This document shows, piece after piece, positions 10,114 to 39,860 of a stretch of 58,225 nt of DNA. Source of the stretch: Bacilli bacterium (lineage in GTDB: Bacteria > Bacillota_I > Bacilli_A > RFN20 > CAG-826); NCBI GenBank assembly GCA_045222195.1, contig JBGUXN010000019.1, positions 1-58,225 of the forward strand. The letters run 5' to 3'. The position numbers and the translations under genes were made by a program. Position 1 is the stretch's first letter. Each line of letters starts with the position of its first letter. The notes below the pieces were generated by a model. That model was not told where the DNA came from. It did not search any database and saw only the letters and a list, made by a program, of their open reading frames with translations.

Positions 10114-10115
10114 AA

Positions 10116-23111: not shown

Positions 23112-23123
23112 TAGGAGTTTTTC

Positions 23124-23843: not shown

Positions 23844-23878
23844 TTATTAAAAACCACAAAATTGATTAATTTATAAAC

Positions 23879-24907
23879 ATGTCCTCAACAGATATTATTG
23901 CACTCATAGTTACAATTATCGGTGTTGCCTCGTTTGCCACAGTCGTCACGATTCTCTTTCGTAACTATATAAGGTCACAGATCAAGGAAATTAATCTTGG
24001 TAATCGCGATATTGAGATTATTGATTTGATGATTTATGAAAGAGATCCAAACGTCATAAAGAAAAGGAAAGCAGGTTCAATAGCGAAAAACGTTATTTAC
24101 TATGCTTTCTTAGCCATTGTTATTCCAGTATTTGGTTTATCCATCTATAGCAGGATTAAAAACAATGTCACTAAGTTTGGTGAAAACTTCGTGATGGTTG
24201 TGGCATCCGGTTCAATGTCACAAAGAAATGAGGCTAATGAATATCTCGTTGAGCATAACTTAACTAATCAATTTAACACGTACGACCTTATTGTCTTATC
24301 AGGCGTTAAGGAAAGTACTACGCTCGCTACCTACGATGTAATTGCCTATAAGAATGACAAACATGTCAACGTCATTCATAGGATTATCGGTATCGATTAT
24401 ACAGAGGGTGAACCCCGCTATATCACGAGAGGGGATTCAAACTCCGCGACAGATACCTACCATCCAAAAAGGAGCGATGTGATTGGTAAATATACGGGAA
24501 AGAGAATTCCAGGAATCGGTATATTTATCATGTTCTTCCAAAGTTACGCTGGAATTGTGACAATCCTCTCTGTCGTCTACTGTTCATTTATGATTTCCCA
24601 CTTTACAAGAAAAATGGACGAAGCCACCGAAGAGAGAAAAGAAATGCTATTACAGCTATTCAATGTTGATGACATGACGGAAAGCGATCCGAAAGTCATG
24701 TCCCTTAGACAACATAACACCATCTTCTATAAAGGCTACGCCTATATCGTTGATCCCGATGGGACGCCATCGAAAAGAGAGATGAACGAGGAAGAGAAAG
24801 AAAAATATGGTGTTAGTGAAGAGCTAATAAAAGTCAACGACTTAGAAGAACAAAAAGAAAATGAAAATGAAAACACCGAAGAAAATATCGGTGAGCAAGG
24901 AGAATAA
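23879..24907 (+). CDS. Signal peptidase I, SipW/ER-type (S26B)
   Basis: VVASGSMS (Ser), VIHRII (His rather than Lys), YITRGDSN...D; flanking TM helices. Confidence 0.88.
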   Translation: MSSTDIIALIVTIIGVASFATVVTILFRNYIRSQIKEINLGNRDIEIIDLMIYERDPNVIKKRKAGSIAKNVIYYAFLAIVIPVFGLSIYSRIKNNVTKFGENFVMVVASGSMSQRNEANEYLVEHNLTNQFNTYDLIVLSGVKESTTLATYDVIAYKNDKHVNVIHRIIGIDYTEGEPRYITRGDSNSATDTYHPKRSDVIGKYTGKRIPGIGIFIMFFQSYAGIVTILSVVYCSFMISHFTRKMDEATEERKEMLLQLFNVDDMTESDPKVMSLRQHNTIFYKGYAYIVDPDGTPSKREMNEEEKEKYGVSEELIKVNDLEEQKENENENTEENIGEQGE

Positions 24908-24911
24908 GATT

Positions 24912-26717
24912 ATGATTAGACCTTATATTACAAGAAAGAACTTAATTGCCATCGCAATTGCGTCCTTATATGCAGTTTTATTTGTCTTTGTCGGTTTATG
25001 TTTAACCGCGACCGAAGACACAGTAATTGCAGAAACAAATATGTTCTTAGGCATGGCTAAAGCCATGGGATTTACAATGATTACTTTCAGTGGACCAAAT
25101 GGGGTGATATCGCTCATTTTGACCGCCATTTACATTGTCGTTTTAGTATTTGGTTTGATCTATGTAAGAAGATTCCAAGTCATTAATAACGTCAAGTGGA
25201 AGAATCCTAAATTATGGTTAGCCTATATCGGAGTGGTCGTAGTCTCCGTTGGTTTATCCATTGGTTTATCTTTATTATTCACACTTGATGATATTGGTAG
25301 TTTCGGCATGATGATGACTTTAATTGGTGAGTCCCTTGCTATCACCTCAATTGCCGCGTTAGGAATTACCGCGATTGTCTTACCAATCTGCATGTTATTC
25401 GTTAACTTCCGTAAAGTTGATAAGCCTTATGCTTTCTTCCATAGTGATAAGTTTGATGACTTAGGCGAAAGAGAAGAAGAACAAGAAGGCGACGTCATTT
25501 CTTCTTTTGAAGGCGAAGAAGAAAAGAACACCACTGTCCAAAACTATATTCAAGGTGCAGTTGGTGATGGCTCAGGCCAAGCGATTGCCTTAGATGGCAG
25601 AGCCAGAGAATTAGATGATAGAGAAAAAGTCTTCCCAGGTCTTTCTAAGATTGACGTTGACTATGATGGTTATTCTATCGACACTATTCCAAGCGATGAC
25701 ATTAACTTGGAACAATTAGTCAATAGATTCAGAAACTATTTAGCCAAAGAAGAAAAACTCTATTACGACATCGATACCATTCGTATCTTTGTTTCTGGGC
25801 TTAACGCTACTAGATTAAGTATTTTAGAAGGTTTATCTGGTACAGGTAAATCATCTTTACCAAGATACTTTGCTAAGTTCATTAACGCTAACGTTACATT
25901 CTTACCTGTCCAAGTTACTTGGAGAGATAAGACCTCTATCTTAGGTTACTTTAATGACTTCTCAAAGATTTATAACGAAACCGACTTCTTACTTAAACTC
26001 TATGAAGCTTCCTATAATCCAGACGCTATCCATATCTTCGTTTTAGATGAAATGAACATCTCTCGTATCGAATACTACTTTGCGGACTTCTTAAGCGTTC
26101 TTGAGTATCCAAGCGATCAATGGAAGATCAGAATTATGCAACTTCCATTTGGTTTCGTCCCACCAGCGAAGTTAGAAGGTGGTTATATCACCATTCCAGA
26201 AAACTGTTTCTTTGTTGGTACAGCGAATAAAGACGATTCTACATTCAGTATCGCAGACAAAGTCTACGATAGAAGTACCGTCATTAGCTTTGATAATAGA
26301 AACGAACCATTCGAAGTCACTGGTGACGCTGGTAGCATCAGAATGTCCTATAGCAAATTAAAAGGTTTATTCGAGGGTGCCACTAAGGATGAGAAATATC
26401 AAATGAGCCAAAGAGATTATGAAAAGCTCTATCAAATCACAGATTACATCTATGAACAATTTGAAGTGGCCTTTGGTAACCGTGTCATGAATCAAATTAA
26501 CGCTTTAGTGCCAATCTTCGTGGCCTCAGGTGGTAAGAAAGAAAACGCTTTAGACTTTATCTTAGCAAGAAAAGTCTTAATTAAATTAGAGGGTCGATTT
26601 GAAGAATTCGTCAAACCAGCCTTAAAGAATATCTTAGACTTATTAGACAAAGTCTATGGGGAAAAGGAATTCCCAATTAGTAGAAAGTTCATCAATAGCT
26701 TAATTAAAAAACTCTAA
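24912..26717 (+). CDS. McrB-like AAA+ NTPase with an N-terminal multi-pass membrane domain
   Basis: About 4 TM helices, acidic linker, Walker A GLSGTGKS, Walker B FVLDEMNISRIEYYFADFLS, GTANKDDST, KVYDR; ATG 24912 after AAGGAG. Confidence 0.88.
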   Translation: MIRPYITRKNLIAIAIASLYAVLFVFVGLCLTATEDTVIAETNMFLGMAKAMGFTMITFSGPNGVISLILTAIYIVVLVFGLIYVRRFQVINNVKWKNPKLWLAYIGVVVVSVGLSIGLSLLFTLDDIGSFGMMMTLIGESLAITSIAALGITAIVLPICMLFVNFRKVDKPYAFFHSDKFDDLGEREEEQEGDVISSFEGEEEKNTTVQNYIQGAVGDGSGQAIALDGRARELDDREKVFPGLSKIDVDYDGYSIDTIPSDDINLEQLVNRFRNYLAKEEKLYYDIDTIRIFVSGLNATRLSILEGLSGTGKSSLPRYFAKFINANVTFLPVQVTWRDKTSILGYFNDFSKIYNETDFLLKLYEASYNPDAIHIFVLDEMNISRIEYYFADFLSVLEYPSDQWKIRIMQLPFGFVPPAKLEGGYITIPENCFFVGTANKDDSTFSIADKVYDRSTVISFDNRNEPFEVTGDAGSIRMSYSKLKGLFEGATKDEKYQMSQRDYEKLYQITDYIYEQFEVAFGNRVMNQINALVPIFVASGGKKENALDFILARKVLIKLEGRFEEFVKPALKNILDLLDKVYGEKEFPISRKFINSLIKKL

Positions 26718-26726
26718 TACTCTTTT

Positions 26727-28055
26727 ATGAAAAGAAGTGAACAAGTCAATTTAACTAACCAGATTGAGACTATTCAAGCTTTTAGCAAAAAGCATAGTGA
26801 CTTATCTAGTTTCTATAAAGAAATCGATAATGTGCCACTGGTGTCGATTCAAGATTTATCATTTGAAAAAGACATTGCTTTATTTAACGAACTCTCATTC
26901 ATTCTTTCGGTTGTCTTATCAATTATCGCTAAGCCACATTTAAACACTAAGAGTGATGAAGTCATCGCTAGAAGCGGCGAAGTCAGCGCGTTAAGCGAAG
27001 AAGATTTTCAAAAGACTCTAAGAGATTCTTCCATATGGAGAAATCAAGGTAACGGTAAGTTATTACCAGAATACCTCTATTACCATAAGCACGAAGATGA
27101 GATTAGAATCTATGAAAATATTTTCATCGTTTATTTAGTCAATGAGATTAACGCGTTAGCGCATCAATATAGTGCTCTTTACGTTTCTTTATTAAGCGTC
27201 GCGGACCATGAAACTAATGTCTTATTAATTGATGATACCTATCAAATGAAAGCGATGGATGAAGTCAATAATGTTCTTCATCGTATTGAGCAAATTAAGA
27301 ACACTTATTTCTATAAAGAAGTGAGTAAAGCTAAATCTAGACCAAAGGTCTTTAGTCCAACGAACATCTTACTTAAAGATAGACTCTATAATATTTGCTT
27401 TAAGTTCTATAAGAAGTTCTTCATCCATCAAGAAGAAGGCTCCTTAGATCAAGACTTATTTATATATTATTATGTTTTAATTTTAAGAAAGTTACGCGAG
27501 AACGACTTTAGACTTAAAGAAGGTAAAGAAAAGATCTTCTCTAATGGTAAGTTAGCCATTCCAGAAAAGATTGCTTTAGCTAATAACAACTATCAAATCG
27601 AAGTGGAATCTAGAATCGATAAGAATTTATTCATCTTTAACTATAGTGAACATGATGGGTCTAATAAGGCCACTCACTTACTCTATATTAGAAGTGATGA
27701 TAATGCTCCATTTGAATATGAAGATATTGGTCCAGATTACTTCGTAGTATCTATTGAAACATTATCATTATGGTATTTATCAATGCTCTTAAATGAAAAA
27801 CTCGTGAAGATTAATAAGACCTTCAAGAGTGAAATGGAAATGATGCGTACATTTGTGGATTCTCACCACTACGTCGTATCAGCTTCCGAAAAGATCTATT
27901 CATCATATTGCCCATCTTGTAAAGGCAAAGATTTATCAGAAACGAATGGTTTCTATGTCTGCGCTGATTGTGGCGCAGTCTACCGTTTTGTTAAAGACAA
28001 ACAAAATAGAGGTCATATCGTATTTAGTAACTTAATCAATTATGGAAGAAAATAA
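26727..28055 (+). CDS. DUF2357/McrC-like protein with C-terminal Zn ribbon; nuclease motif not evident
   Basis: IYENIFI and PTNILLKDRLYNICFKFY resemble DUF2357 motifs; follows the McrB-like gene; CPSC...CADC at the C-terminus. Confidence 0.7.
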   Translation: MKRSEQVNLTNQIETIQAFSKKHSDLSSFYKEIDNVPLVSIQDLSFEKDIALFNELSFILSVVLSIIAKPHLNTKSDEVIARSGEVSALSEEDFQKTLRDSSIWRNQGNGKLLPEYLYYHKHEDEIRIYENIFIVYLVNEINALAHQYSALYVSLLSVADHETNVLLIDDTYQMKAMDEVNNVLHRIEQIKNTYFYKEVSKAKSRPKVFSPTNILLKDRLYNICFKFYKKFFIHQEEGSLDQDLFIYYYVLILRKLRENDFRLKEGKEKIFSNGKLAIPEKIALANNNYQIEVESRIDKNLFIFNYSEHDGSNKATHLLYIRSDDNAPFEYEDIGPDYFVVSIETLSLWYLSMLLNEKLVKINKTFKSEMEMMRTFVDSHHYVVSASEKIYSSYCPSCKGKDLSETNGFYVCADCGAVYRFVKDKQNRGHIVFSNLINYGRK

Positions 28056-29232
28056 ACTAGTTAAAGAAGCTCCACAAGAGGAAGCTCAGGAAGAAAAGAA
28101 AAAGAAAACAATATTAATCGTCGAAGACGAAGATATTTCTTATGAAATCTTAGCCACGATGCTCAAGGATGATTATGAAATATTGCGCGCTAATAACGGC
28201 GATGAAGGTCTCCGCATTTTAAGAGCGCAAGCTAAAGACATCTCTTTAGTGTTGCTCGATATTTTAATGCCGGTCATGGATGGCTTAGAAATGCTCAAAG
28301 TCAAAGTCGGAGAAAGAAGAATCGCTAATATTCCTGTCATTGTTTTAACTAGTGAAAAAGCCATGGAAGTCGAAGCTATCAGAATGGGCGCTTTGGACTT
28401 CATTAAAAAACCATTTGAAAGCCAAGAAGTCATCAGAGCGAGAGTTTGGAGAATTGTTGATTTATATGAAAGACATAAAATCCAAACTACAGACCCAAGT
28501 GAAGATATTCCAGCGATTAAGATTGTGGACCTTTATAAATCATATGGTCCAAAAGAAGTCTTAAAAGGTTTAAACCTTGAAGTCTTTAAAGGCGAATTAT
28601 TCGGTTTTATTGGTCGAAATGGTATTGGTAAAAGTACCACTATCGATTGCATGATTGGTGTTAAGAGATTTAACTCTGGCACGATTGAAATTGAAGGCTA
28701 TGACATTACAAAAGAACCTTTAATTGCCAAGTCTAGATTTGGATATGTCGCTAGCGAACCAACGTGCTATGAAACGATGACTGGTTATGAGTATTTAGAA
28801 TTCATCGCTTCCGTTTATCAAATCAGCGAAGCGGAATTTGCCTCTAACGTCGAATATTTAACTAAACGTTTAGTGCTTACAGATGAAGATTTAAGCAAAT
28901 ATATTTCTTCCTATTCTCATGGTATGAAGCAAAAACTATGTTTAGTGGCTTCATTACTCAATAATCCAGACTTATGGATTTTAGATGAACCAACCGTCGG
29001 TCTTGATATTATGGCGGTTGAAGAACTCAAAAAGATGATGAGAGAATACGCGAATCATGATAAGTGCGTCTTTATTACCTCTCATAACATCGATATCATC
29101 GCCAAGATCTGCGATAGAGTGGCCATCATCAATGATGGTAAAGTCGTCGAATTAATGGACTTAAATAGAGATCCAAATAAGAGATTACAACTCGGTCGTA
29201 TCTTCTTAAACATTTTTGGAGCTAATCAATAA
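28042..29232 (+). CDS. Receiver domain fused to an ABC transporter ATPase
   Basis: ILIVEDE, LLDILMPVMDG, FIKKP; then GRNGIGKST, YSHGMKQK, ILDEPTVGLD, ITSH. Confidence 0.92.
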   Translation: MEENKLVKEAPQEEAQEEKKKKTILIVEDEDISYEILATMLKDDYEILRANNGDEGLRILRAQAKDISLVLLDILMPVMDGLEMLKVKVGERRIANIPVIVLTSEKAMEVEAIRMGALDFIKKPFESQEVIRARVWRIVDLYERHKIQTTDPSEDIPAIKIVDLYKSYGPKEVLKGLNLEVFKGELFGFIGRNGIGKSTTIDCMIGVKRFNSGTIEIEGYDITKEPLIAKSRFGYVASEPTCYETMTGYEYLEFIASVYQISEAEFASNVEYLTKRLVLTDEDLSKYISSYSHGMKQKLCLVASLLNNPDLWILDEPTVGLDIMAVEELKKMMREYANHDKCVFITSHNIDIIAKICDRVAIINDGKVVELMDLNRDPNKRLQLGRIFLNIFGANQ

Positions 29233-30827
29233 TGTTATCTTTAATCTTCAAAGACTTTAAATTAATCTTTGCAGGTACCCAACAAAATAAGTTAGGTAAG
29301 TATTTAAGCTTGCTCTTCACTATCGTGGTGGGAATTTTATTTATTGTCATTGAAGTGTATTTATTCCAAGCAATCTTTACCAAGATGGAAGCGGTTAAGG
29401 GTGCGAGTAGTTCTTACTTCACTTTGTTCCTATTTATCATTTCTACCTTGTTAACTATCTTCTGCACATTCACGGCGATGAAGTTATTCTTTAACTCCGT
29501 TGATAACGTGAAGTTAAGTGCTTTACCAGTTAGTGAATCAAAGATTGTCTTATCTAAATTAATATTCTTATTCATCACCATGTATGCGATGAATTTAACA
29601 TTCAACTTACCGTTATTTATCACCTATGGTGTGATCTATAGGAAGATGTTCTCTTTCTACTTTAATGCGGTATTTTATCCAGCCTTCCTCTTCTTCTTCC
29701 AAGCAGGGGTGGCCTTATTACTTGTTTATCCAGTGAAGTTATTACTTAACTTCTTAAAGAAGCATATCATTGTGCAGTTTGTGGTCGTCTTCATTCTTGC
29801 CTTTGGTTTAGCCTTCCTTTATTCACAAGCTTTGAACTTATTTATCAATTTAGTGGCTAATAACAATATTTCGCAGTTATTCACCACTGATACGATTAAC
29901 GCGGTTAATTCAGCATCTAAATTTATGGTTCCTGTTAACTTCTTAGTGGAAGCATTTGTGAATAACGTTAGAACGGCGATATTCCCATCAATCGCTATTT
30001 CTATTGGTGTATTTATCATCGGTTTATCAGTAGCGATCTACTTCTATAACAAGTTCTTACAAAACTTCACTAACGATACAAGAAGTATTAAAAAAGAATC
30101 TTTAAAGATGGTAAGTCCTACAAAAGCACTTATTAAAAAAGAATTAGTGTTACTTCTTAGAAACTCTAACTTCATCTTTAGCTTTACTGGTTTATTAATG
30201 GTTGAACCATTCTTAAGCTATTTAATCATCAAATCAATGAACACTATTTTCACATCTGGTTCTCTTGCTTACTATTTAGCCAGTGTGCCAAACATCATCG
30301 CTTTTTTAGATGTCATGTTAATGATGTTAATTAGTGCGATTATCTATCAAGGCGCGAACGCTTATATCACTAATGAAGATAAAGCGGTGAGATTAATGAA
30401 ATCCATGCCAGTATCTTCCTACAAGCAATTAGCAATTAAAGTTTTAATCCCACTATCGATGTCTTTAGCGGCTTTACTCATTAGCTATATCTTATTAGCG
30501 GCCACTCAGACATTATCAATCATTCCAACATTATACGGATTATTAATGAACATTATCTTTATAGTTACATTATCTATAGTTTCTTTATTTGAAGAATTAC
30601 ATGTTAAACGCTACCAAGAAAAGAATACCTTATTAAGTGGTATCTATACTTACGCTGTTCCAGTAGTCTACTTCTTATTAGCGTTATTACTTTGCTATTT
30701 CCAAGTGAACTATCACTTCATTTTCCTCATCGGTTTAGGAGTGGTTATTCTTTCACTTGTTCCATATATGATTAAGTTTAAAGAGAGGGTGGACAATGAT
30801 TTCCTTTCTTTGGAGGTCGCTAACTAA
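29232..30827 (+). CDS. ABC-2-type exporter permease (about 12 TM)
   Basis: Two hydrophobic halves with LSALPV..SKIVLSK and LMKSMPV...QLAIK motifs; translationally coupled to the ATPase. Confidence 0.85.
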   Translation: MLSLIFKDFKLIFAGTQQNKLGKYLSLLFTIVVGILFIVIEVYLFQAIFTKMEAVKGASSSYFTLFLFIISTLLTIFCTFTAMKLFFNSVDNVKLSALPVSESKIVLSKLIFLFITMYAMNLTFNLPLFITYGVIYRKMFSFYFNAVFYPAFLFFFQAGVALLLVYPVKLLLNFLKKHIIVQFVVVFILAFGLAFLYSQALNLFINLVANNNISQLFTTDTINAVNSASKFMVPVNFLVEAFVNNVRTAIFPSIAISIGVFIIGLSVAIYFYNKFLQNFTNDTRSIKKESLKMVSPTKALIKKELVLLLRNSNFIFSFTGLLMVEPFLSYLIIKSMNTIFTSGSLAYYLASVPNIIAFLDVMLMMLISAIIYQGANAYITNEDKAVRLMKSMPVSSYKQLAIKVLIPLSMSLAALLISYILLAATQTLSIIPTLYGLLMNIIFIVTLSIVSLFEELHVKRYQEKNTLLSGIYTYAVPVVYFLLALLLCYFQVNYHFIFLIGLGVVILSLVPYMIKFKERVDNDFLSLEVAN

Positions 30828-33322
30828 TGGCTTCTAAGAAGAATCTCGTTGTATTACTTATCATGCCTTTTGCCATCTCTATTCTTTCGTTTACCGCGAT
30901 TAATATGACTTTTAATTTAATCGATAACGATATTTTGAATATTGATTGGGATTATAAAGACAATGAGTCCTTCGCTTTAACCGATAATCAATACGCGCAT
31001 AAATTAAAAGCCACAGCGATTAACGATAGAAATTATCCAACCGCTCAAACATTAGTGTGGTCAGTTTATAACGCTGATGCAGCGGACTTAGGCAATCACG
31101 CTGAAATCGTCACTAAAGGTAGCGAATCATATTTACATACCTTAAGCGTGGGCAATGTTGTTATTACAGTATCTAACGATAAAGGCAATGTCCAAAAGAA
31201 GATGAACGCCATTATCTATAACAATAACGTTATTCTCTTTAATACCACCACTAAGGGATCGCAATCTAATGTTGATTCAACAATGTACTACGGCGAATAC
31301 GATGTGAACGATAGAGGCACTAAAGTATTATCTTCATTTGGTTATACCTTAGAGAGTGATTGCTTGAACCATGATTCTAAAGTCATCTTAATTGATAACT
31401 CCACGAATGTCAGTGTGGACACCGTTAAGAATGTCGTCTCATTTAAGTCCGCAGGTGATGCCTACTTAACATTTGGTTTTGATAGTCCAGCGTACACTGA
31501 TACATATACCTATAACTTCAAAATTGTGGAAGATGGTGTCAATGTTTATGATTACGATGATTTGCTCTTCTGCACCAATAAATCACAAAATGGCGAAATC
31601 GCCGTTTTAAGACGTCATTTTGAATCTTTAAGCAATACATATGTCTTAGATAGTAATGGCCGTCCTACAAGCCAAAAAAAGAACAATGAGACCGAACTAT
31701 TTGGTAAGTATAGCAACGGCAAGTATTCTTTCAAGAATGAGATCTATCAATTTGAAACAAAATACAATCAAGAATTCATTAAACAGTGGAATGAATTCGC
31801 TAAGAATAATTCTGGATACGAACCAGTCACTGATAAGGTCAATGTTGGTTTACATGTGCAAAAAGACTTCTACGGTAATGGCTTCACACTCAATTTACAT
31901 AACTTAACTTATCCATATCAAACGATGTCCGTTATTGACCAAGACGGCAATACACAAATTGTGCCTAAGTTAAGTGAAGATAACTTATTTAGAGGACCAT
32001 TACCTTACTATACCTTAGGGGATCCAAATAACATGCCACTTGTGACCGCTTATGGACAAGACAATATTGGTATGTACGTCGAAGGTGAAGATATCACCAT
32101 CAACGATGTCAATATCAAGAACTGTGACTTTGGTAATAACTTAGCGAACTTAGATACCGTTGGTACAGTCATGGAAGTTTATGGTTCTAACATCACTGTT
32201 AAGAACTCAAGATTATCAAACGGCAAGACAGTATTTAGAAGCTTTGGTGATAAAACCAGGGACAACGCTAATATCGTATTAGATAACTGTATGCTCTCTT
32301 ATTCCAGAAACTTCTTAGTCAGTTCAGGCAACTATAACTTCAACAAAGTTGATGGTTCTAGAACATATCAATTCGTCCATGAAGATGGAAAGAGAGAAAT
32401 GCATAAGATTGATGACTATCTATCCGACACTAAAGTGGATGGCAAGAAGTCATTAGGCGACCAAGCCCTTGAAGATTACTTGATGGGCGTCGACAAAGGC
32501 TACTTATTAGAAACCATGAGATCAATCCAAAATGGCTTAGACCTCGCTAGAACACCTGGTAATAGATACTATGGAGACTTAACCATTAATGACACATTGT
32601 TCTACCGCTCAGGTATCTCAAGCATCGCACTAGAAAGCTTGTTCAATGGTCCATTCCTCTATAACGCCACTCCAACACTTGTTGGCGAGATCTTTGCTAA
32701 AGCGGAAGGCCTATTAGACAATACAAGCCTTGTACCATTGCTTCCAAGACAAGTTGGAGGTATCTCATTCCCAGTTGAGATAAAACTCTCTGGAGAAACA
32801 AAGTTCTACGATTACAAGACATCAAACTTATTTGATATCAATGGCCTCGTAGGCGAACACATCTCAAATATCATTGGAACATACGCGCCCGAATATGCCG
32901 GTCTAATTAGTTTAGATAGGATATTCCCAATCAAAGATGTCTTGTTAGAAGACGGAGGCAAGTTAGGCGCAGTCCTCAAGGCTGATGGATCAAACAACCT
33001 TAATGTTCCAATCGCCTTCTACGGAGGTGGCATTAACATCTCTAGAGTGACTTGCGATGAAACATTCACTTATAGAGAGCACTTAATCGATTTGGATAGC
33101 GATGATTCCAATGTTGACGCAATGGATGTCGACTTCCTGAAGGCCTACGCCAAGATTCCACAAGCAGGTGATGGCATTATGGCTAACGCGGCAAACATCG
33201 TTCTCAAATGTGTCACCATCGTCTCAGGATTCAACCCATTTAAATTCACATTAGCCAAAGGTGATGGCTACTTATACAACGAGGCACCAAAGGTGCAAGA
33301 CTTAATCAATAACGCCAAGTAA
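30827..33322 (+). CDS. Large membrane-anchored or secreted protein, probable Ig-like plus beta-helix regions
   Basis: N-terminal hydrophobic anchor; FYGNGFTLN, ITINDVNIKNC, NITVKNSRLSNG, IVLDNCMLS parallel beta-helix-like repeats. Confidence 0.65.
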   Translation: MASKKNLVVLLIMPFAISILSFTAINMTFNLIDNDILNIDWDYKDNESFALTDNQYAHKLKATAINDRNYPTAQTLVWSVYNADAADLGNHAEIVTKGSESYLHTLSVGNVVITVSNDKGNVQKKMNAIIYNNNVILFNTTTKGSQSNVDSTMYYGEYDVNDRGTKVLSSFGYTLESDCLNHDSKVILIDNSTNVSVDTVKNVVSFKSAGDAYLTFGFDSPAYTDTYTYNFKIVEDGVNVYDYDDLLFCTNKSQNGEIAVLRRHFESLSNTYVLDSNGRPTSQKKNNETELFGKYSNGKYSFKNEIYQFETKYNQEFIKQWNEFAKNNSGYEPVTDKVNVGLHVQKDFYGNGFTLNLHNLTYPYQTMSVIDQDGNTQIVPKLSEDNLFRGPLPYYTLGDPNNMPLVTAYGQDNIGMYVEGEDITINDVNIKNCDFGNNLANLDTVGTVMEVYGSNITVKNSRLSNGKTVFRSFGDKTRDNANIVLDNCMLSYSRNFLVSSGNYNFNKVDGSRTYQFVHEDGKREMHKIDDYLSDTKVDGKKSLGDQALEDYLMGVDKGYLLETMRSIQNGLDLARTPGNRYYGDLTINDTLFYRSGISSIALESLFNGPFLYNATPTLVGEIFAKAEGLLDNTSLVPLLPRQVGGISFPVEIKLSGETKFYDYKTSNLFDINGLVGEHISNIIGTYAPEYAGLISLDRIFPIKDVLLEDGGKLGAVLKADGSNNLNVPIAFYGGGINISRVTCDETFTYREHLIDLDSDDSNVDAMDVDFLKAYAKIPQAGDGIMANAANIVLKCVTIVSGFNPFKFTLAKGDGYLYNEAPKVQDLINNAK

Positions 33323-33331
33323 AGGAGAGAA

Positions 33332-34411
33332 ATGATTATGAAGAAATTAGCAAAAGTATTAGTATTAACCACAATGTGCTTAGGCATGCCACTACTCAAT
33401 GCATGTTCATTCTTTAGAAGTAACAACAATGGTGAAAATGGTATTAAAAACATTGAAGTTACTCAAGATGAATTAGGTAATGCCATTATTACCATTCACT
33501 ATACCGATAGCACTAAGAAACCAGTAACCTTTACTCTTCCAAAAGGCGAGAACGGTCAAGATGGCGCCGGTATTAAAAGAGTGGATTACACCTCTGATGA
33601 ATATGGCGTCACCACAGTCACCATTACATTCACCAATTCTTTAGATCCAGTTTCATTCACCTTACAACCTGGTAAGAGCATTGCGGACGTTAAATTCGAA
33701 AAAGACGAATCAGATAACACTTTGATTATCTTTATCGATAGCGATGGTAATGAATTATCACCAATCACAGTTTTCAAAGGCGATACAGGTGAACAAGGCG
33801 TAGGCATTATTTCCATCATTTCTAACTATAACGCCGATGGTAGCGCCACATTAACTCTCACCTTAACCGATGAATCGGAATATAACGTTGATATTCCTGC
33901 ACCAAAGGAAGGCAGAGGCATTGAATCAATCATCACTAGAAAAGAAGGCACAAAAGTGTTCTTAGTGATTACATATACTGACGATACATCTGAAGAAGTT
34001 TCCTTCGATGCTGCACCATCATGGACAACAGGCAATGCTAAACCTGGTGATGGTTTCGGATACGACGGAGATTATTACTTCGATATTTCCCATGACATCA
34101 TTTACATCAAAGAAAACGGCATTTGGACAGTCGCAGTCGACTTTAATACAAACTCCGCTGAATACTCAGTCATCTTCGAATTAAATGACACCACAGCTGA
34201 ACCAGCTACATTTGCAGTTGGACAACGCTCATATGTCATTCGCAAAGGTGAAACATTCTATTCATCCAATTTAGACATGCCAGTTCCAACAAGATCTGGA
34301 TATACATTCGGTGGATGGTACACATCCTCAACTCCAAATGTCACACATGGTGCTTTCAATAACTTAACACCAGTTTTGAGTGATATGACTCTATACGCTA
34401 AATGGAATTAA
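33332..34411 (+). CDS. Lipoprotein with short Gly-X-Y/beta repeats and a C-terminal InlB B-repeat-like domain
   Basis: Lipobox LNAC; recurring G..G.GI..I...G...TI.(Y/F)T(D/N) units; PVPTRSGYTFGGWY...DMTLYAKWN. Confidence 0.8.
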   Translation: MIMKKLAKVLVLTTMCLGMPLLNACSFFRSNNNGENGIKNIEVTQDELGNAIITIHYTDSTKKPVTFTLPKGENGQDGAGIKRVDYTSDEYGVTTVTITFTNSLDPVSFTLQPGKSIADVKFEKDESDNTLIIFIDSDGNELSPITVFKGDTGEQGVGIISIISNYNADGSATLTLTLTDESEYNVDIPAPKEGRGIESIITRKEGTKVFLVITYTDDTSEEVSFDAAPSWTTGNAKPGDGFGYDGDYYFDISHDIIYIKENGIWTVAVDFNTNSAEYSVIFELNDTTAEPATFAVGQRSYVIRKGETFYSSNLDMPVPTRSGYTFGGWYTSSTPNVTHGAFNNLTPVLSDMTLYAKWN

Positions 34412-34443: not shown

Positions 34444-35085
34444 ATGAGAGGTAAGCCAATTAGAAACAAAAATAAGATTCTAGTCGCATTAGTGGCTCTT
34501 TTCACCATGCTCATGTGTACATCTGTCGGCTTTGCCGCTTGGATCACTACTGGTGGTAGTAACGCTACTGCTAACGGCACTATTGATGCCGATACAGTTG
34601 AAGGTGGAGGCGGTAGCCACACTCCACAAAATCTTGATGTCGTGACCATCACAAACGTTGATGAATATCAATACTATGCTGGTAATGGTTTCGTCAATAA
34701 TGGCGTTTATGATGACGAATGCTATCTCACCGGTTCTTGTTCTTTCAATGCCACTAATGGCAAAAAGTGTTTTACAAGTTTCAGAGACAGCAACTCATTC
34801 AAGCTTGATGTTGAACTATCAACAACAGCAAGCGGTGGATTATCTGGCTTGAACATCACTTCTAGTGAAATCTCTTTGACAAGCACAAACTTCACTGTCG
34901 GAAGTCAAAATCCAACTGATTCAACAACGATTACCACCACATTCACCATTACTTGTGGCAGTAACGAATCAGATTTCACTTTTGATTTTTCTGTGAAACT
35001 AGTATATGGCGAAACATTATCAAGCTTCCCAGATTTAAGTTCCGCACCAATCAGCATTAAATTTACACCAAAGGAGAACGCATAA
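34444..35085 (+). CDS. Third secreted protein with SipW-class-like signal peptide (candidate minor subunit)
   Basis: SVGFA-AWITTGGSNATANGTIDADTV parallels SVGFA-SWVISQGDAKTVDGSIVVDTV of 22422. Confidence 0.7.
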   Translation: MRGKPIRNKNKILVALVALFTMLMCTSVGFAAWITTGGSNATANGTIDADTVEGGGGSHTPQNLDVVTITNVDEYQYYAGNGFVNNGVYDDECYLTGSCSFNATNGKKCFTSFRDSNSFKLDVELSTTASGGLSGLNITSSEISLTSTNFTVGSQNPTDSTTITTTFTITCGSNESDFTFDFSVKLVYGETLSSFPDLSSAPISIKFTPKENA

Positions 35086-35086: not shown

Positions 35087-37966
35087 ATGAGAGCGATTAA
35101 ACGTATTGCGTCTATATTCATGTTCATGGCGTTCGCTATTGGTGGAGTAGCAGAACTCGCTAAAGCAAGTTGGACAACTGGCGATGGAAACGGAAATGAT
35201 AACGCCAATCCTGTCAGTGAAGCCTTTACAAGTTCAGCGCAAGAACCTATCTGCTATAACGCTTCCACAAACGTTAAATATCCAACCATTTATGGTGCTT
35301 TAAATGCAGCAACAAGTGGTCAAACAATCTATGTATATCCTTCACTACATCAGAATTCCACAGTTGTCAGCGGTTCTCCAACTTTAACAACATATGTAAC
35401 AGAGACTAACAATCTTGTTATTAAAAACGGTGTTACACTTGCCCTACCATTCAGTGGCACTTCTGTATCAGAAATGAATACAAGCACCATGCATAACTTT
35501 AGTAACAAATCGAGAATTGATACCAACCTAACTAATGTCCATAAAAATAGAAAAATCTGTTTGAACATGAGAGAAGGCGCGGACATTACCATTCAACAAG
35601 GTGGTACCTTAACCATTGGTGGTAAGTTCTATCAAACTGGTGTCTGTTTAGAATACTGTGAAATTAATTTAGGTTCAGGTTCTTCTATTGCGTGTAACGG
35701 AACTATTAACTGTTATGGCGTTATTAAAGAGCAAAAAGATAGTACAAACACCACATATGACACCACAACATACGGAAACACAAATGACTCAGGCAGAAGC
35801 GTCATCATTTATAGTGGAAGCACACTTAAAACTTACATCTGCTTAAAAGACGCTAAATCAGGTGCCACCATTTTGTCATATAACGATGAGGGCATTTGTC
35901 CATTTAATACGTATGACTTCCCTGGCATTCAAACCTTTATGTCTGTTAAATACGGTGCAACAGTTACTGCCTATGCAGTCATGTTCATTTCTTCTACAAC
36001 TGTTTGCGAATCATTTACCGTCATCAACAATGGATCTTCCGATAGTATGTTCCAATTAAGCAGCGGAGCATCCATTGATGTTGAATACGTGCCTAAGGAT
36101 GCTGAATACTTCACAGGTGCTACTAACACCTGCACCAAGATTTGTATCAATGGTACCGTTAGCCTTGGCAGAATCAAGATTACTGTTAGCGGTCAAAGCG
36201 TTGACACAAATAACTTCTTCTTACCAATCGGCTACAATATTAAGATTGCCGTTTTATCCGGTGGTAATTTACAAACTTCAAAGAGAGTTAAATTCCTCCC
36301 AGGTAGCGAACTCCACGTTAGAAACAATGGTACATTTACTTTCAGCAACCAAGTAACATTCTATAGAGTCGACAGACTTCCATCATCATGGTCATATGGA
36401 AACAAGACCAATGATGCAGTTTTAGAAGTTAATGGTAGCTTAGTGGCTAGTGGTACTTCCGCTGCTATCGGTGCAAGAATCACTCACTCCAGTACCGGTG
36501 GTACAGGTTCTCTTAATTTATCCGCTATTTCTGCCCAAAGTAAATTAACTGTTTCTACAATTGAAGAAGTTAATGGCGCGGATATCAGCGTAACATCAAT
36601 CGGCTTATTCAACATGAATGGCGAATATGTTAACGCTCAATTCAAGAGTGGCCAAACATATACAAGTGGCTATGCAAGCAATAACTACTATTGGAATGGC
36701 GAATACATCGATTCAAGCGATATCACATTCATCATTGCTGAAGCAAGCTTCACACGCAAACTCATTTCTTATAGTGTCTATCAAGGCACCACAAATAATG
36801 CTTCTAACCAAGAAGTGATTGCTGAAGATGTCACAGAAGCTAGATCTTATCCATTCAAGACAAGCAACTACATCCACATCACAACCAAGTATGGCTGTAC
36901 ATTTACTGCAACCGATAGCGCTGGTAACCCAATCACTATCACTAATGGTTGGATTAGATTCTCCGGTGATATCACAGTGACAATTAACCCAGTTGAAGCG
37001 GTTAACTTCCAAATCTCCACAGAGTCTAAGAGTGGCGCTGGTTATTTGACATACAACGTGAAACTCGGTCCAACAAGCGCGGTAAGTGAAACCACTATAG
37101 ATACTTCTAGTGCTAACCAAACCATCACAATGCCAAAAGGCTATTACATTAGAGTCAAGATGCAAGGTTCTGGTGGTTCATATTCATCGCACACCATTAA
37201 ATCAGGAAGTGAGAACTTACCAGATGGCTTCACACACGACAAAGCCGTTCGTGTTAACGGTGATGTCCATGTCCACTTCGACTTCACTGCGGGCTGTATT
37301 ACCGCTGATGCTTTGGTGTTACTCCCAGATGGCACAACCACAAAAGCGGAAAATCTCCATATTGGTGATTTAGTGAAGACATGGAGTTTTGAAACTGGTG
37401 GCTGGGTCGTTGAACCTATCATCTTCTTAGAAGAAATTATAGATGTTCATACAAGAGTTATTACATTGACATTTGATGACAATAGTTCTATTGATGTCTG
37501 TTGGAAACAAGGATTCTTTGATACCGACTTACTAGACTACTTCGTCGTCAACGACGATAACTATCAAGATGCGGTCGGAAGAAATGTCCTCGCGTTCGAC
37601 GGAGATACTCCAGTTACCAAGAGAATCGTCTCCGCAACAAGCGAAGTGAAATTAACATCGACGTATGAAATTCACTCAGGCCATGGCTATCAAATCGTCG
37701 CTAACGATATCTTAACTATCGAACCATTAATTAACGAACATGTCTGGTTCACCGTTAATGAAGATTACAAGTATGACGAAGAACTCATGAGACAAGATCT
37801 TGAAACATATGGTGTCTTATCATACGAAGCATTTGCTGATTATGTCACTGAAGAACAATACGATCTCTTCAATGGTCAATACTTAGCGGTACCAATTGGT
37901 AAAGGCTACTTCACTCTTGAAGAATTGATGGAAATCATCAAACACTTCTTACCAGGTAATACCTAG
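35087..37966 (+). CDS. Large adhesin-like secreted protein with a C-terminal Hint domain
   Basis: Signal ending LAKA-SWTT; Ser/Thr/Gly-rich beta-solenoid-like body; G-CITADALVLLPDG...AENLHIGDLV...YEI...IVANDILT Hint pattern from Cys737 (nt 37295). Confidence 0.8.
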   Translation: MRAIKRIASIFMFMAFAIGGVAELAKASWTTGDGNGNDNANPVSEAFTSSAQEPICYNASTNVKYPTIYGALNAATSGQTIYVYPSLHQNSTVVSGSPTLTTYVTETNNLVIKNGVTLALPFSGTSVSEMNTSTMHNFSNKSRIDTNLTNVHKNRKICLNMREGADITIQQGGTLTIGGKFYQTGVCLEYCEINLGSGSSIACNGTINCYGVIKEQKDSTNTTYDTTTYGNTNDSGRSVIIYSGSTLKTYICLKDAKSGATILSYNDEGICPFNTYDFPGIQTFMSVKYGATVTAYAVMFISSTTVCESFTVINNGSSDSMFQLSSGASIDVEYVPKDAEYFTGATNTCTKICINGTVSLGRIKITVSGQSVDTNNFFLPIGYNIKIAVLSGGNLQTSKRVKFLPGSELHVRNNGTFTFSNQVTFYRVDRLPSSWSYGNKTNDAVLEVNGSLVASGTSAAIGARITHSSTGGTGSLNLSAISAQSKLTVSTIEEVNGADISVTSIGLFNMNGEYVNAQFKSGQTYTSGYASNNYYWNGEYIDSSDITFIIAEASFTRKLISYSVYQGTTNNASNQEVIAEDVTEARSYPFKTSNYIHITTKYGCTFTATDSAGNPITITNGWIRFSGDITVTINPVEAVNFQISTESKSGAGYLTYNVKLGPTSAVSETTIDTSSANQTITMPKGYYIRVKMQGSGGSYSSHTIKSGSENLPDGFTHDKAVRVNGDVHVHFDFTAGCITADALVLLPDGTTTKAENLHIGDLVKTWSFETGGWVVEPIIFLEEIIDVHTRVITLTFDDNSSIDVCWKQGFFDTDLLDYFVVNDDNYQDAVGRNVLAFDGDTPVTKRIVSATSEVKLTSTYEIHSGHGYQIVANDILTIEPLINEHVWFTVNEDYKYDEELMRQDLETYGVLSYEAFADYVTEEQYDLFNGQYLAVPIGKGYFTLEELMEIIKHFLPGNT

Positions 37967-37973: not shown

Positions 37974-38002
37974 AAATCCACTCAGCAATGGGTGGATTTT
38001 TT
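37974..38002. terminator. Bidirectional intrinsic terminator
   Basis: AAATCCACTCA-GCAA-TGGGTGGATTT with A/T runs on both sides, between convergent genes. Confidence 0.85.
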
Positions 38003-39860
38003 ATTCTTCTTTTTGTTTTGGTTTATAAAAGAATATTAATACGAGGAACACTAGAGTGATAAGTGTTGGTCCTAGATAATCAATAAATATATCTTTAAAA
38101 CCAAAATATCTTTCTGGAACGAATAATTGAATAACTTCTGATAATGTAGCGAGCATAAAAGCTAATACACCAGTAATCAAAAGAATATATAACTTATCTT
38201 TCTTTGCTTTAGGTTCTAAATATGTATAGAAGAACAAAATTAAGAATAATGTACTTAATAGATGTAAGAAAGCATGACCCACGATTTTTCTAACTGATAC
38301 TGGATCGACGTCCGCTAATTCCGATTTAGTGGGATCCACGACATTAAAGATAATTCTATTTTGACAATATGTTCCTTCATATCTAAAAGAGAAACTTAAA
38401 GATAGCTCACCACTTCCCACGAATCTAAAGTTATAAACACCATTTTCTACTTTAGATAATGAATAGTAATTAGCGATTAATGTACATGATACATAATCAG
38501 GATGTTCTTCTATACCTGTATCACGATGTCTAATAATGATATCTAAACGATAATCATGATTATTAACTAATTCTTGTTTTAAATATGAGACGCCTTCAAA
38601 TAAGAGATCAACATCAATATTGAATTGATTAGAAAATGTATCACATAGTATAGAGTGGTTATTTAACTTTATTGATGGATCATCTAATAAATGAACATCT
38701 AAAGAAGTATTACCAGCATTATTACCTCTAATAAAGAGTTCGTTATTAAATGCGAAAACACCGTTTTTAAGCGACTTTTTGATTTGGGCATGACAAATAC
38801 CTTCATCGTTGCTTTTCACCATGAGAGCGTGCTCCGAAAGCTCATTTCCCCCTAGCTTTATAGTTTGACCGATGTAGGAAGAGATGATTTGTTCTGGACA
38901 AACAATATCTTTAACGGATTCTATAGTTAATTCACTTATTGAGAGAGGAGAACATGTTTCATTTAAGACAGTGAAAGACACGGAACTTCCATATGTAGAT
39001 GTAATTACGTGTTCTCCTGGAGATGTAGCTTCGCCTATTTTCACTATTTCGTTTTCTTCATCGATGATGATATTAGAGTCATCACTTATATAATGGTGAT
39101 TTGATAAGTCTAAAGCATCGCGGAATCTAGTTTCTGAAAATGGAGAATAATAAAGACCATTCTTTTCTAAAGCGTTATAGTAAACACCACCTCTAATATA
39201 GTCTTCTTGTTTAGAGATATTGTAGCCATCTTTAACAATATCTTCTTCATATGGTTCTAAGAATAATGATGAGATATAGAAACTACTTCCTAACTTAGGA
39301 GATGTATTACTAACGTATATATTCTCTTTAGTGGGTACTTGTTTATCCACGACATCAAAGTTAATAGTTAATAATCTATTCGTGGATGGCACACTTAAGG
39401 TGATGAATTGATTAGAAGCAGCTTTCTTACCATAGATGGTGAGATTTTGTTTGCCTATATCATAGTCACAAATGAAATAGTTATCAGAACCTTTAGAGGT
39501 TTTGATATTGACCGTCTTTTCTTTTAGTGATTCATCAGTGCCTTCAGGAAATATCTCTTTTATTTCCATTTGAAATGAATCGCCCACAAATACTTTGTAG
39601 CGGTCATCATCAAATAGATATGAATAGTATTTATGACTATATTCCCCGATTTCTAATCTTTCTGGTCTAACTGGTTTAACACCTTTAAGGGTATTCACTA
39701 TAGAGTTCACTATGAGACTTCCAACATCATTGACCCATAATGTCGCGGTTCTTGGCAAAGTGGAACCCACGATGATAAGAGATGCGAAAATAATATGAAG
39801 ACCTAAAAATAGATACATCCTAAAAGGTCTATGTTTAAATGATGGAAGATTACTCAACAT
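38001..39860 (-). CDS. Second VanZ-like membrane protein with a large extracellular insertion
   Basis: N-terminal TM; C-terminal VRKIVGHAF...SEVIQLFVPERY....DIFID VanZ signature. Confidence 0.8.
   Translation of the reverse strand: MLSNLPSFKHRPFRMYLFLGLHIIFASLIIVGSTLPRTATLWVNDVGSLIVNSIVNTLKGVKPVRPERLEIGEYSHKYYSYLFDDDRYKVFVGDSFQMEIKEIFPEGTDESLKEKTVNIKTSKGSDNYFICDYDIGKQNLTIYGKKAASNQFITLSVPSTNRLLTINFDVVDKQVPTKENIYVSNTSPKLGSSFYISSLFLEPYEEDIVKDGYNISKQEDYIRGGVYYNALEKNGLYYSPFSETRFRDALDLSNHHYISDDSNIIIDEENEIVKIGEATSPGEHVITSTYGSSVSFTVLNETCSPLSISELTIESVKDIVCPEQIISSYIGQTIKLGGNELSEHALMVKSNDEGICHAQIKKSLKNGVFAFNNELFIRGNNAGNTSLDVHLLDDPSIKLNNHSILCDTFSNQFNIDVDLLFEGVSYLKQELVNNHDYRLDIIIRHRDTGIEEHPDYVSCTLIANYYSLSKVENGVYNFRFVGSGELSLSFSFRYEGTYCQNRIIFNVVDPTKSELADVDPVSVRKIVGHAFLHLLSTLFLILFFYTYLEPKAKKDKLYILLITGVLAFMLATLSEVIQLFVPERYFGFKDIFIDYLGPTLITLVFLVLIFFYKPKQKEE

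What the first reader, a model, noticed from the sequence alone, without database searches (positions are those of the whole stretch)
37295..37966. Hedgehog-like Hint domain plus ~80-aa tail on a putative tip adhesin
Seen: a Gly-Cys junction (AG|CITAD) and a Hint pattern to ANDILT with no terminal His-Asn, followed by an acidic/aromatic tail (YKYDEELMRQDLETYG...). The usual block-B TxxH position reads CWKQ. Established: Hedgehog Hint domains lack the terminal Asn and use a following region to deliver a nucleophile onto the N-terminal fragment. Inference: the adhesin may self-cleave and be ligated to a lipid, glycan or protein, which would give sortase-independent anchoring. The His-to-Gln change may mean this copy is atypical or inactive.
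Basis: partly seen in the sequence, partly recalled or inferred. Interest (0 to 1): 0.78.

Follow-up and report, generated by a model that had tools for sequence, protein, structure and literature searches.

The report
Self-cleaving Hint-plus-tail cassette on surface protein
The last 223 residues of this 959-residue secreted protein are a genuine Hedgehog/intein-type self-processing domain fused to a small conserved domain of unknown fold, a widespread but apparently undescribed unit that probably cuts itself off the protein and might hand the protein's end to another molecule.

Summary
Residues 737-959 of the ORF at 35087..37966 start with Cys at a Gly|Cys junction. They fold as a Hint domain (AF2 pLDDT 95; best Foldseek hit is Hedgehog 1at0). 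They lack a terminal His-Asn and end in an 80-residue acidic five-helix tail with no Pfam, NCBIfam or PDB match.

Hint and tail form one cassette. It matched 2103 clusters at 50% identity, and it ended 149 of 162 proteins examined. A tail-only profile never hit a place without the Hint.

The block-B Gln is not decay. That column holds only His (108) or Gln (54), and Gln co-varies with Glu861.

The host lineage has no sortase, PBP or SEDS genes. The gene is coupled to a small pilin-like gene in a locus with a SipW-type peptidase.

Most likely the cassette forms a thioester at Gly736-Cys737 and detaches (about 0.7). Whether water or another nucleophile resolves the thioester is open; I put Hedgehog-like transfer at about 0.3.

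This scan has noted the same cassette before on other DNA. I found no paper describing it. It is a new variant of a known kind.

The parts
35087..37966 (+). Whole gene: 959-aa secreted protein made of leader, about 710-aa passenger and Hint+tail cassette
   Evidence: ORF list and translation
35087..35167 (+). N-terminal leader (residues 1-27, ...GGVAELAKA|SW...), SipW/TasA-like; the cleavage site is inferred
   Evidence: Sequence. The same leader type occurs on the coupled small proteins and on 57 of 123 family members by my heuristic. A SipW-type peptidase is in the locus.
35168..37294 (+). Passenger (residues 28-736), no known family; 24-31% identical to the passengers of proteins whose cassettes are 67-80% identical
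   Evidence: Pfam gave nothing; Atlas scores were below 0.9; BLASTP comparison
37292..37297 (+). Gly736|Cys737 junction, the predicted site of N-S acyl shift and cleavage
   Evidence: Codons GGC TGT. Cys is present in 161 of 162 homologues; the -1 residue is Gly 53, Ser 43, Thr 23.
37295..37723 (+). Hint domain (residues 737-879), all-beta, ends ANDILTIE without His-Asn
   Evidence: AF2 strands at residues 1-142 of the module, pLDDT 95. Foldseek 1at0 E=2.9e-9, TM 0.77. Profile against BIL2 6y75 E=5.6e-11.
37508..37510 (+). Gln808 (CAA) at the block-B His position
37667..37669 (+). Glu861, the residue that co-varies with Gln808 (Ser/Thr in the His subfamily)
   Evidence: Among 183 tips: Q+E 52 of 56 Gln tips; H+S/T 99 of 127 His tips
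37724..37963 (+). Tail domain (residues 880-959): acidic, five short helices, near-invariant D904, Y908, G909, Y913, K939, G940
   Evidence: Column counts. Tail-only AF2 pLDDT 86.7. No PDB fold match, best E=7.4. No Pfam or NCBIfam family.
34444..35085 (+). Translationally coupled small protein (213 aa) with a GFAAW leader; its stop TAA lies one base before the ATG of the Hint protein
   Evidence: The same pairing occurs in 14 of 17 loci. 36 homologues were found.
23879..24907 (+). Archaeal/SipW-type signal peptidase I of the locus
   Evidence: TIGR02228 67.7 bits, above the cut-off of 51.85
33332..34411 (+). Lipoprotein with a Listeria-Bacteroides repeat; it keeps its place upstream of the pair in four of the five conserved-operon loci
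   Evidence: Flg_new E=4.3e-11; lipobox-like ...LLNAC; neighbourhood clustering

Best explanation
Residues 737-959 are a two-domain autoprocessing cassette. A Hint domain has its catalytic Cys at a Gly|Cys junction and has no C-terminal Asn, so it can act only on its own N-terminal junction. It is fused to an accessory helical domain that is always present with it. After Sec export and removal of the SipW-type leader, the Hint converts the Gly736-Cys737 peptide bond into a thioester (N-S acyl shift). Resolving that thioester detaches the roughly 25-kDa cassette from the roughly 710-residue passenger. In this copy the usual block-B His is replaced by a Gln808/Glu861 pair, which defines a conserved subfamily rather than a dead copy. 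Shown here: the fold, the conserved nucleophile, the missing C-terminal splice motif, the linkage of the tail to this Hint type, and the subfamily pattern. Inferred: the acyl shift, the cleavage and the role of the tail. On the fate of the thioester I lean slightly to hydrolysis, meaning the cassette is a removable pro-domain or folding and maturation aid (about 0.38), over Hedgehog-like transfer to another nucleophile (about 0.3).
For: Hint fold: AF2 pLDDT 95.3 and pTM 0.90. Foldseek's best hits are Hedgehog 1at0/6tyy, then BIL2, then inteins, with 59 hits at E<=1e-3. A family profile hits BIL2 (6y75) at E=5.6e-11 over the whole domain. An H-type member, P0062, hits Hedgehog chains first (E=3e-4), sharing the opening 'CFTP'.

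Selection on the active site: Cys1 is present in 161 of 162. Column 808 holds only His (108) or Gln (54), although other residues are one base change away from a His codon. F811/D812 are near-invariant. Gln808 co-varies with Glu861, and 7 His+Glu intermediates exist.

Cassette behaviour: it matched 2103 clusters at E<=1e-3. It lies within 10 residues of the C-terminus in 149 of 162 proteins. It is 67-80% identical where the passengers are 24-31% identical.

Tail linked to Hint: the 23 strong tail-only hits in 399 genomes all lie at Hint+tail places. One protein, P0068, carries two internal cassettes, as in a polyprotein.

Precedent: the listing and abstract start of PMC6333167 say the block-B His of an intein can be compensated. 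Review passages say B-type BILs, which lack the C-terminal motif, cleave their N-terminal junction (PMC7765530).
Against: There is no biochemical evidence; cleavage is inferred from homology only. The block-B Thr is missing across the family (column 805: Ile 73, Val 28, Ser 18; Cys here), and the His is missing in this copy. The protein itself scores below the Pfam and NCBIfam thresholds. The -1 residue varies, so the junction context is not strongly conserved. I could not read the model's coordinates, so I do not know whether the conserved tail residues lie near Cys737.
Confidence: 0.7

Rival explanations
1. Hedgehog-like transfer. The tail acts as an adduct-recognition region that brings in a nucleophile other than water: a membrane lipid or glycolipid, a sterol, a glycan, or an amine of a partner or target protein. 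The passenger then ends up covalently joined by its C-terminal Gly. This would give sortase-independent anchoring, fibre cross-linking or covalent adhesion.
For: The layout matches Hog domains, and Hedgehog is the best fold hit. The tail always accompanies this Hint type and carries near-invariant polar residues (D904 159, Y908 161, K939 152 of 162), which is more than a spacer needs. The host and four near-complete cassette-bearing relatives have no sortase, PBP or SEDS genes, and the family f1 has a PBP in 1 of 42 genomes, so these wall-less cells need another way to hold surface proteins. The gene is translationally coupled to a small pilin-like gene in 14 of 17 loci, which offers a candidate protein acceptor. 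Acidic residues E782/E783 (this copy) and H784 (66 of 108 in the His subfamily) lie in the loop that aligns within two residues of Hedgehog's general base Asp46.
Against: The tail is acidic (net charge median -8; negative in 160 of 162) and has no fold match to anything, including sterol-binding regions. The candidate general-base positions are only moderately conserved. The cassette occurs both in genomes with PBPs (7) and without (12), so peptidoglycan cannot be the universal acceptor. By my heuristic, 74 of 123 members carry pilin-type or TasA/SipW-type leaders, and others appear by eye to have N-terminal membrane anchors; these already hold the N-terminus, so self-anchoring is not the general need.
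Confidence: 0.3
2. Catalytically dead Hint kept as a structural or binding domain. The cassette stays attached and serves, for example, as a terminal interaction module.
For: This copy lacks both the Thr and the His of block B. Its Pfam and NCBIfam scores are sub-threshold. Ataxin-1 chains appear among the weak PDB profile hits; that Ataxin-1 AXH is a non-catalytic Hint-like fold is recalled, not tested here.
Against: Cys1 is kept in 161 of 162 proteins, and column 808 is restricted to His or Gln with a co-varying Glu861. A dead domain would be expected to lose the nucleophile and drift at these columns.
Confidence: 0.15
3. Polymorphic-toxin-type pretoxin HINT, in which the 80-residue tail is a small toxin or effector released by the Hint.
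For: HINT peptidases sit just upstream of C-terminal toxin domains in polymorphic toxins (passages of PMC3482391). One of 41 members hits PF07591.
Against: The polarity is reversed: here the tail is the constant part and the N-terminal passenger is the variable part. Without a C-terminal Asn the Hint cannot free the tail from itself. No immunity-like gene follows; the downstream gene is convergent and VanZ-like.
Confidence: 0.03

Closest known systems
Hedgehog / Hog C-terminal autoprocessing domain (Hint + sterol- or adduct-recognition region; PF01079; PDB 1at0, 6tyy, 6td6)
   Same: The catalytic Cys sits at a Gly|Cys junction, there is no C-terminal Asn, and a conserved region of about 80 residues follows the Hint. 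It is the best Foldseek hit (E=2.9e-9, TM 0.77). PF01079 is the Pfam family hit by most members (17 of 41). Member P0062 aligns to Hedgehog from 'CFTP' through the block-B His.
   Different: It is bacterial. The tail has no detectable similarity to a sterol-recognition region and is acidic rather than hydrophobic. The block-B Thr is absent family-wide and the His is Gln in this copy. This protein scores below the PF01079 cut-off. No adduct is known.
Bacterial intein-like (BIL) domains, A-type, including the ciliate BUBL BIL2 domain (PDB 6y75, 6tmm)
   Same: It is the best profile-to-sequence match in the PDB (E=5.6e-11 over 143 residues). Like BILs, the domain sits in variable secreted proteins rather than in conserved enzymes (review passage, PMC7765530).
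   Different: A-type BILs keep the C-terminal His-Asn and cleave or splice there. This family ends ...ILT-x-E/P with no His-Asn and carries the extra tail.
B-type BIL domains (Pfam Hint_2, as I recall the correspondence)
   Same: They lack the intein C-terminal motif and cleave their N-terminal junction (review passage).
   Different: Only 1 of 41 members hits Hint_2. No accessory tail is described in the passages I read. I had no B-type reference sequences to compare directly.
C-type BIL domains with the PPS-1 domain of Bdellovibrio
   Same: This is a BIL type that travels with its own conserved companion domain (passage of PMC9185962 citing Dori-Bachash 2009).
   Different: I did not compare them: no sequences were at hand and I did not read the original paper. 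The host group is different (predatory Proteobacteria).
tapA-sipW-tasA type fibre loci (context of the gene)
   Same: A SipW/archaeal-type signal peptidase is in the locus. Several small secreted proteins and the large protein share a ...GF[AS][AS]W leader.
   Different: The small proteins match no TasA or camelysin family. The host has no wall. The large subunit ends in the Hint cassette.
Self-cleaving C-terminal intramolecular chaperone domains of phage tailspikes and fibres (recalled from memory, not tested here)
   Same: It is a removable C-terminal module on large secreted proteins that cuts itself off after helping assembly. It serves as the model for the hydrolysis or pro-domain reading.
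   Different: The fold and chemistry differ (a Ser-Lys type cleavage, as recalled). No homology was tested or claimed.

Membership tests
Hint (Hedgehog/intein) fold superfamily | Hint beta-fold | tested here: met
   AF2 pLDDT 95.3. Foldseek gave 59 PDB hits at E<=1e-3, all of those listed being Hint, intein or BIL domains.
Hint (Hedgehog/intein) fold superfamily | Nucleophile (Cys/Ser) as first residue | tested here: met
   Cys737; Cys in 161 of 162 homologues
Hint (Hedgehog/intein) fold superfamily | Block-B Thr-x-x-His | tested here: not met
   It reads C-W-K-Q. Family column 805 is Ile/Val/Ser, and column 808 is His 108 / Gln 54.
Hog domain (Hedgehog-type Hint + SRR/ARR) | No C-terminal Asn; a following region needed for transfer | tested here: met
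   The Hint ends ANDILTIE, and a conserved 80-aa tail always accompanies it. A transfer role for the tail is not shown.
Hog domain (Hedgehog-type Hint + SRR/ARR) | Score above the PF01079 gathering threshold | tested here: not met
   16.5 bits against a cut-off of 29.7 for this protein. 17 of 41 relatives hit at E<=1e-3.
Hog domain (Hedgehog-type Hint + SRR/ARR) | General base (Asp46, or His) that activates the incoming hydroxyl | tested here: inconclusive
   E782/E783 here, and H784 in 66 of 108 His-type members, lie within about 2 residues of Asp46 in a gapped HMMER alignment. I could not make a structural superposition.
Hog domain (Hedgehog-type Hint + SRR/ARR) | Hydrophobic sterol-recognition region; covalent sterol adduct | tested here: not met
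   The tail has net charge median -8 and no fold match. Adduct formation is not testable with these tools.
Intein | C-terminal His-Asn plus a downstream nucleophile; insertion in a conserved host protein | tested here: not met
   There is no His-Asn. The cassette sits at the protein's end, and the passenger is variable.
A-type BIL | Conserved C-terminal His-Asn | tested here: not met
   Absent, although BIL2 is the best profile hit
B-type BIL | Intein N-terminal motifs without the C-terminal motif; match to Hint_2 | tested here: inconclusive
   The lack of a C-terminal motif fits. Only 1 of 41 members hits PF13403. There were no reference sequences for a direct test.
Pretoxin HINT of polymorphic toxins | Variable C-terminal toxin after a constant stalk and HINT; an immunity gene next door | tested here: not met
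   The tail is constant and the passenger variable. 1 of 41 members hits PF07591. The downstream gene is convergent and VanZ-like.
TasA/SipW fibre locus (context) | SipW-type signal peptidase in the locus | tested here: met
   TIGR02228 67.7 bits, above the cut-off of 51.85
TasA/SipW fibre locus (context) | Subunit homologous to TasA/camelysin | tested here: not met
   No Pfam or NCBIfam family on the small proteins

The most novel reading that the evidence does not exclude
The Hint+tail cassette is a bacterial counterpart of the Hedgehog Hog domain that works as a built-in, single-turnover ligase. The tail recruits a non-water nucleophile, and the passenger's C-terminal Gly is esterified or amidated onto it. 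In this wall-less, sortase-less bacterium the acceptor would be a membrane lipid, glycolipid or sterol, the coupled pilin-like partner, or a target-surface molecule. That would be a sortase-independent way to anchor, cross-link or covalently stick surface proteins, used by thousands of Firmicute surface proteins.
Probability: 0.3. Interest if true: 0.9.

Novelty: new variant of a known kind. Interest (0 to 1): 0.64.

Why it matters
Hint domains are known as inteins, as BIL domains and as the cholesterol-transferring end of Hedgehog. An abstract I saw (PMC7242414) calls Hedgehog's covalent sterol ligation singular across life.

Here a Hint with the Hedgehog layout, plus a new accessory domain that always accompanies it, closes a very large set of bacterial surface proteins: 2103 clusters at 50% identity. 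No Pfam or NCBIfam model covers the tail, and my searches found no paper on it.

If the cassette only cleaves, it is a major unannotated maturation step for surface proteins of gut Firmicutes, and it explains why these proteins lack C-terminal sorting signals.

If it transfers, it is a new protein-lipid or protein-protein ligation chemistry. That would bear on the origin of Hog domains and could be useful for protein engineering.

The natural His or Gln+Glu alternation at the active site is a ready-made experiment on how the N-S acyl shift is catalysed.

Tried and rejected
1. The search for related loci on genome contigs with alignments A1 and A2 failed, because no stretch was conserved enough. 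With P0002 alone it returned one weak locus in a Spirochaetia MAG (34% over residues 30-102). I therefore have no organism names for the family. The statement in earlier notes that most members are gut Clostridia was not tested here.

2. Complex prediction of the cassette with the mature part of the coupled small protein gave no answer (score 0.02, controls not run). This is neither support for binding nor evidence against it.

3. Cluster look-up of three proteins gave no source names.

4. The Atlas search of the passenger gave only scores below 0.9, pointing to InlB-B-repeat or pectate-lyase-like clusters. These are leads only.

5. phmmer of the cassette alone against the PDB found nothing useful. 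Only the family profile and a His-type member reached BIL2 and Hedgehog.

6. The last word-based search, for stand-alone tails of 44-140 aa, found one 59-aa fragment on a 570-bp contig. It is uninformative beyond showing no evident stand-alone tail among close relatives.

7. The idea that peptidoglycan is the acceptor is rejected as a general explanation: 12 of 19 strongly matching genomes have no PBP.

8. The idea that the cassette is specific to wall-less bacteria is rejected: 7 of those 19 genomes have PBPs.

9. Literature searches found no description of this cassette. Subscription journals and supplements were not searchable.

Full report
**What is there.** The window holds a 959-codon ORF at 35087..37966 on the + strand. 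The finding's coordinates run from the Cys737 codon (TGT, 37295) to the stop codon. The sequence reads ...FDFTAG|CITADALVLLPDGTT..., continues through ...DVCWKQGFFD... and ...YEIHSGHGYQIVANDILTIE, and ends with an 80-residue stretch rich in Asp, Glu, Tyr and Phe.

**Is it a Hint?** Alone, the protein only grazes the curated models: Pfam Hint reaches 16.5 bits against a cut-off of 29.7, and TIGR01445 intein_Nterm reaches 20.2 against 24.5. phmmer against PDB sequences finds nothing useful. With homologues the answer is clear.
- An AF2 model built on a 41-row alignment has pLDDT 95.3 and pTM 0.90. It is all-beta for module residues 1-142, followed by helices.
- Foldseek against the PDB returns the Hedgehog autoprocessing domain first (1at0, E=2.9e-9, TM 0.77; then 6tyy). 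The ciliate BIL2 domain and many inteins follow. There are 59 hits at E<=1e-3, each aligning about 145-150 columns, which is the Hint part only.
- A profile of the family hits BIL2 (6y75, 6tmm) at E=5.6e-11 across the whole domain.
- A His-type family member, P0062, has Drosophila Hedgehog chains as its top PDB sequence hits (E=3e-4). The alignment starts at an identical 'CFTP' and places the family's block-B column on the His of 'TPAH'.

**The cassette.**
- phmmer of the 223 residues against 1.84 billion cluster representatives gave 2103 proteins at E<=1e-3 and 1754 at E<=1e-10. In the 150 listed, the match nearly always spans query residues 1 to about 218, so Hint and tail travel together.
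- I examined 162 proteins (the listed representatives plus the hits). In 149 the cassette ends within 10 residues of the C-terminus. The exceptions are one protein with a linker and membrane helix behind the cassette (P0058), one 3496-residue protein with two internal cassettes (P0068), and a few with extra C-terminal domains.
- The tail is at least as conserved as the Hint. Of 162: G909 162, Y908 161, G940 160, D904 159, Y913 154, K939 152.
- Folded alone, the tail gives five short helices (pLDDT 86.7). It has no structural neighbour in the PDB (best E=7.4, TM 0.28).
- No Pfam or NCBIfam family covers the tail, in this protein or in 41 relatives.
- A tail-only profile searched over 399 genomes of the phylum gave 23 strong hits. 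Every one lies at a place already found with the Hint+tail profile. In that sample the tail never occurs without this Hint.
- Within the closest relatives the cassette is 67-80% identical while the passengers are 24-31% identical.

**The Gln at block B.** Column 808 holds His in 108 and Gln in 54 of the 162 proteins, and nothing else. His (CAY) and Gln (CAR; CAA here) differ by one base. So do several other residues that never appear, which argues for selection.
- Gln goes with Glu at column 861 (52 of 56 Gln tips among 183). His goes with Ser or Thr there (99 of 127 His tips). Further positions co-vary: 832, 834 and 847.
- I built a tree with columns 808 and 861 masked. One clade of 118 is all His. 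The other clade holds all 56 Gln forms with 9 His forms scattered among them, giving about six changes by parsimony. Seven His+Glu intermediates exist.
- The three Gln-type cassettes found in whole genomes show the same pairing.
- This copy is therefore a normal member of a conserved Gln/Glu subfamily, not a decayed one.
- The block-B Thr is absent from the whole family (column 805 is Ile, Val or Ser).
- The search listing and abstract start of PMC6333167 report that the block-B His of an intein can be compensated.

**Host and context.** The assembly is 1.45 Mb, 77% complete, and has one cassette.
- It and four near-complete cassette-bearing relatives have no match to the sortase, PBP transpeptidase or SEDS (FtsW/RodA) families, while the control genomes do match. 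In the host's family only 1 of 42 genomes has a PBP. This is a wall-less lineage, so wall anchoring by sortase is not available.
- The cassette is not tied to wall-lessness. Of 19 genomes with strong matches in the phylum sample, 12 lack and 7 have PBPs. It is patchy: 0 of 22 other genomes of the same genus, and 26 of 399 in the sample.
- In the window the gene follows a 213-codon gene by one base (TAA-C-ATG).
- In 14 of 17 loci examined, a small protein of 137-242 residues with a ...GF[AS][AS]W-type leader sits immediately upstream of, or overlaps, the cassette protein's gene.
- The locus holds an archaeal/SipW-type signal peptidase (TIGR02228, above cut-off) and two more small proteins with that leader.
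- Five loci share a longer conserved gene order: a membrane AAA-like protein, DUF2357, an ABC ATPase, a permease, an 831-residue protein, a lipoprotein, the small protein and the cassette protein.
- By a heuristic of my own, I classed the leaders of 123 full-length-looking family members. 57 are SipW-like, 8 are classic TasA-type (...FAWFTD), 9 are prepilin-type, 30 are other signals or membrane anchors, and 19 show no hydrophobic N-terminus. The cassette thus sits mostly on proteins whose N-terminus is the assembly or anchoring end, with the cassette at the far end.

**Mechanism.** Shown here are the fold, the conserved nucleophile, the missing C-terminal splice motif, the tail that always accompanies the Hint, and constrained active-site alternatives. 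From the established chemistry of Hint domains (inteins, BILs, Hedgehog) I infer an N-S acyl shift at Gly736-Cys737, followed by resolution of the thioester that separates passenger and cassette (confidence about 0.7). What resolves it is open.
- Hydrolysis (pro-domain, folding aid or release) fits the acidic, non-membrane-like tail (net charge median -8), the polyprotein-like P0068, and the many members already held at their N-terminus.
- Transfer to another nucleophile fits the Hedgehog layout, the invariant polar residues of the tail, the lack of any other anchor in a wall-less host, and the coupled partner gene.
- I put hydrolysis at about 0.38 and transfer at about 0.3. A dead domain gets about 0.15 and a toxin-type reading about 0.03.

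**Comparison with known families.** A review (passages of PMC7765530) lists four HINT types: Hog-Hint, inteins, and A- and B-type BILs. Another paper mentions a C-type BIL with a companion PPS-1 domain (passage of PMC9185962).
- The present Hint is closest in fold to Hog-Hint, and in profile score to the A-type-like BIL2.
- It lacks the A-type His-Asn and the intein context.
- It is rarely hit by Hint_2 or PT-HINT (1 of 41 each).
- It carries a new accessory domain.
- I file it as a new variant within the Hint superfamily that works like a B-type BIL or a Hog domain, not as a member of either.

**Earlier notes and literature.** This scan's notebook holds at least eight earlier AI notes on the same cassette or locus type in other genomes. 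They agree with this reading. Their statement that most carriers are gut Clostridia was not tested here. Seven literature searches found no description of the cassette. Subscription journals and supplements were not covered.

Noticed in passing
window 34444-35085 and its 35 aligned homologues (alignment A4): The first ~38 residues of the coupled small protein (MRGKPxRxKNKILVALVALFTMLMCTSVGFAxWITTGG) are almost invariant, even among homologues whose mature parts are only 33-40% identical. This is unusual for a leader that is simply cut off. It suggests a functional N-terminal segment or cassette-like exchange of the mature part.
   Followed up: partly
window 24861-33322: A conserved gene order lies upstream of the pair. 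It comprises a 618-aa protein with N-terminal membrane segments and Walker motifs, a 442-aa DUF2357 protein with a zinc ribbon, a 396-aa receiver-domain/ABC-ATPase fusion, a 531-aa multi-pass permease and an 831-aa secreted protein with no family. The ABC ATPase, permease and 831-aa genes recur in L030, L033, L041 and L042; the 618-aa and DUF2357 genes were seen in fewer of these loci.
   Followed up: partly
window 22422-24907: Two further small proteins (229 and 239 aa) with the GFA[SA]W leader lie directly before the SipW/archaeal-type signal peptidase gene (23879-24907). That gene carries a long acidic C-terminal extension.
   Followed up: partly
window 38001-39860 (-): A convergent 619-aa membrane protein has a large extracytoplasmic region and a C-terminal VanZ-like domain (PF04892, 30.4 bits, just over the cut-off).
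   Followed up: no
G274:C17:50461-51174 (L011, L044): In a PBP-bearing relative, the cassette closes an open frame of 8308 residues.
   Followed up: no
P0068 (3496 aa), P0058 (456 aa): P0068 has two cassettes inside one polypeptide (at about 336-547 and 1787-1996), like a polyprotein. P0058 has a Ser/Thr-rich linker and a membrane helix behind the cassette.
   Followed up: no
G406:C2:20379-20833 (L026); G412:C11:111185-111964: These cassette copies are interrupted by stop codons (1 TGA and 2 TAG in G406; 1 TGA in G412). They are likely pseudogenes or sequencing errors.
   Followed up: no
L033 (G152) 3425-6798; L039 (G331) 5251-10328: These loci hold additional pairs or runs of genes whose products carry the same leader type but were not grouped with the cassette proteins in the neighbourhood clustering. 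If they truly lack the cassette, it is an optional ending within this kind of locus.
   Followed up: no
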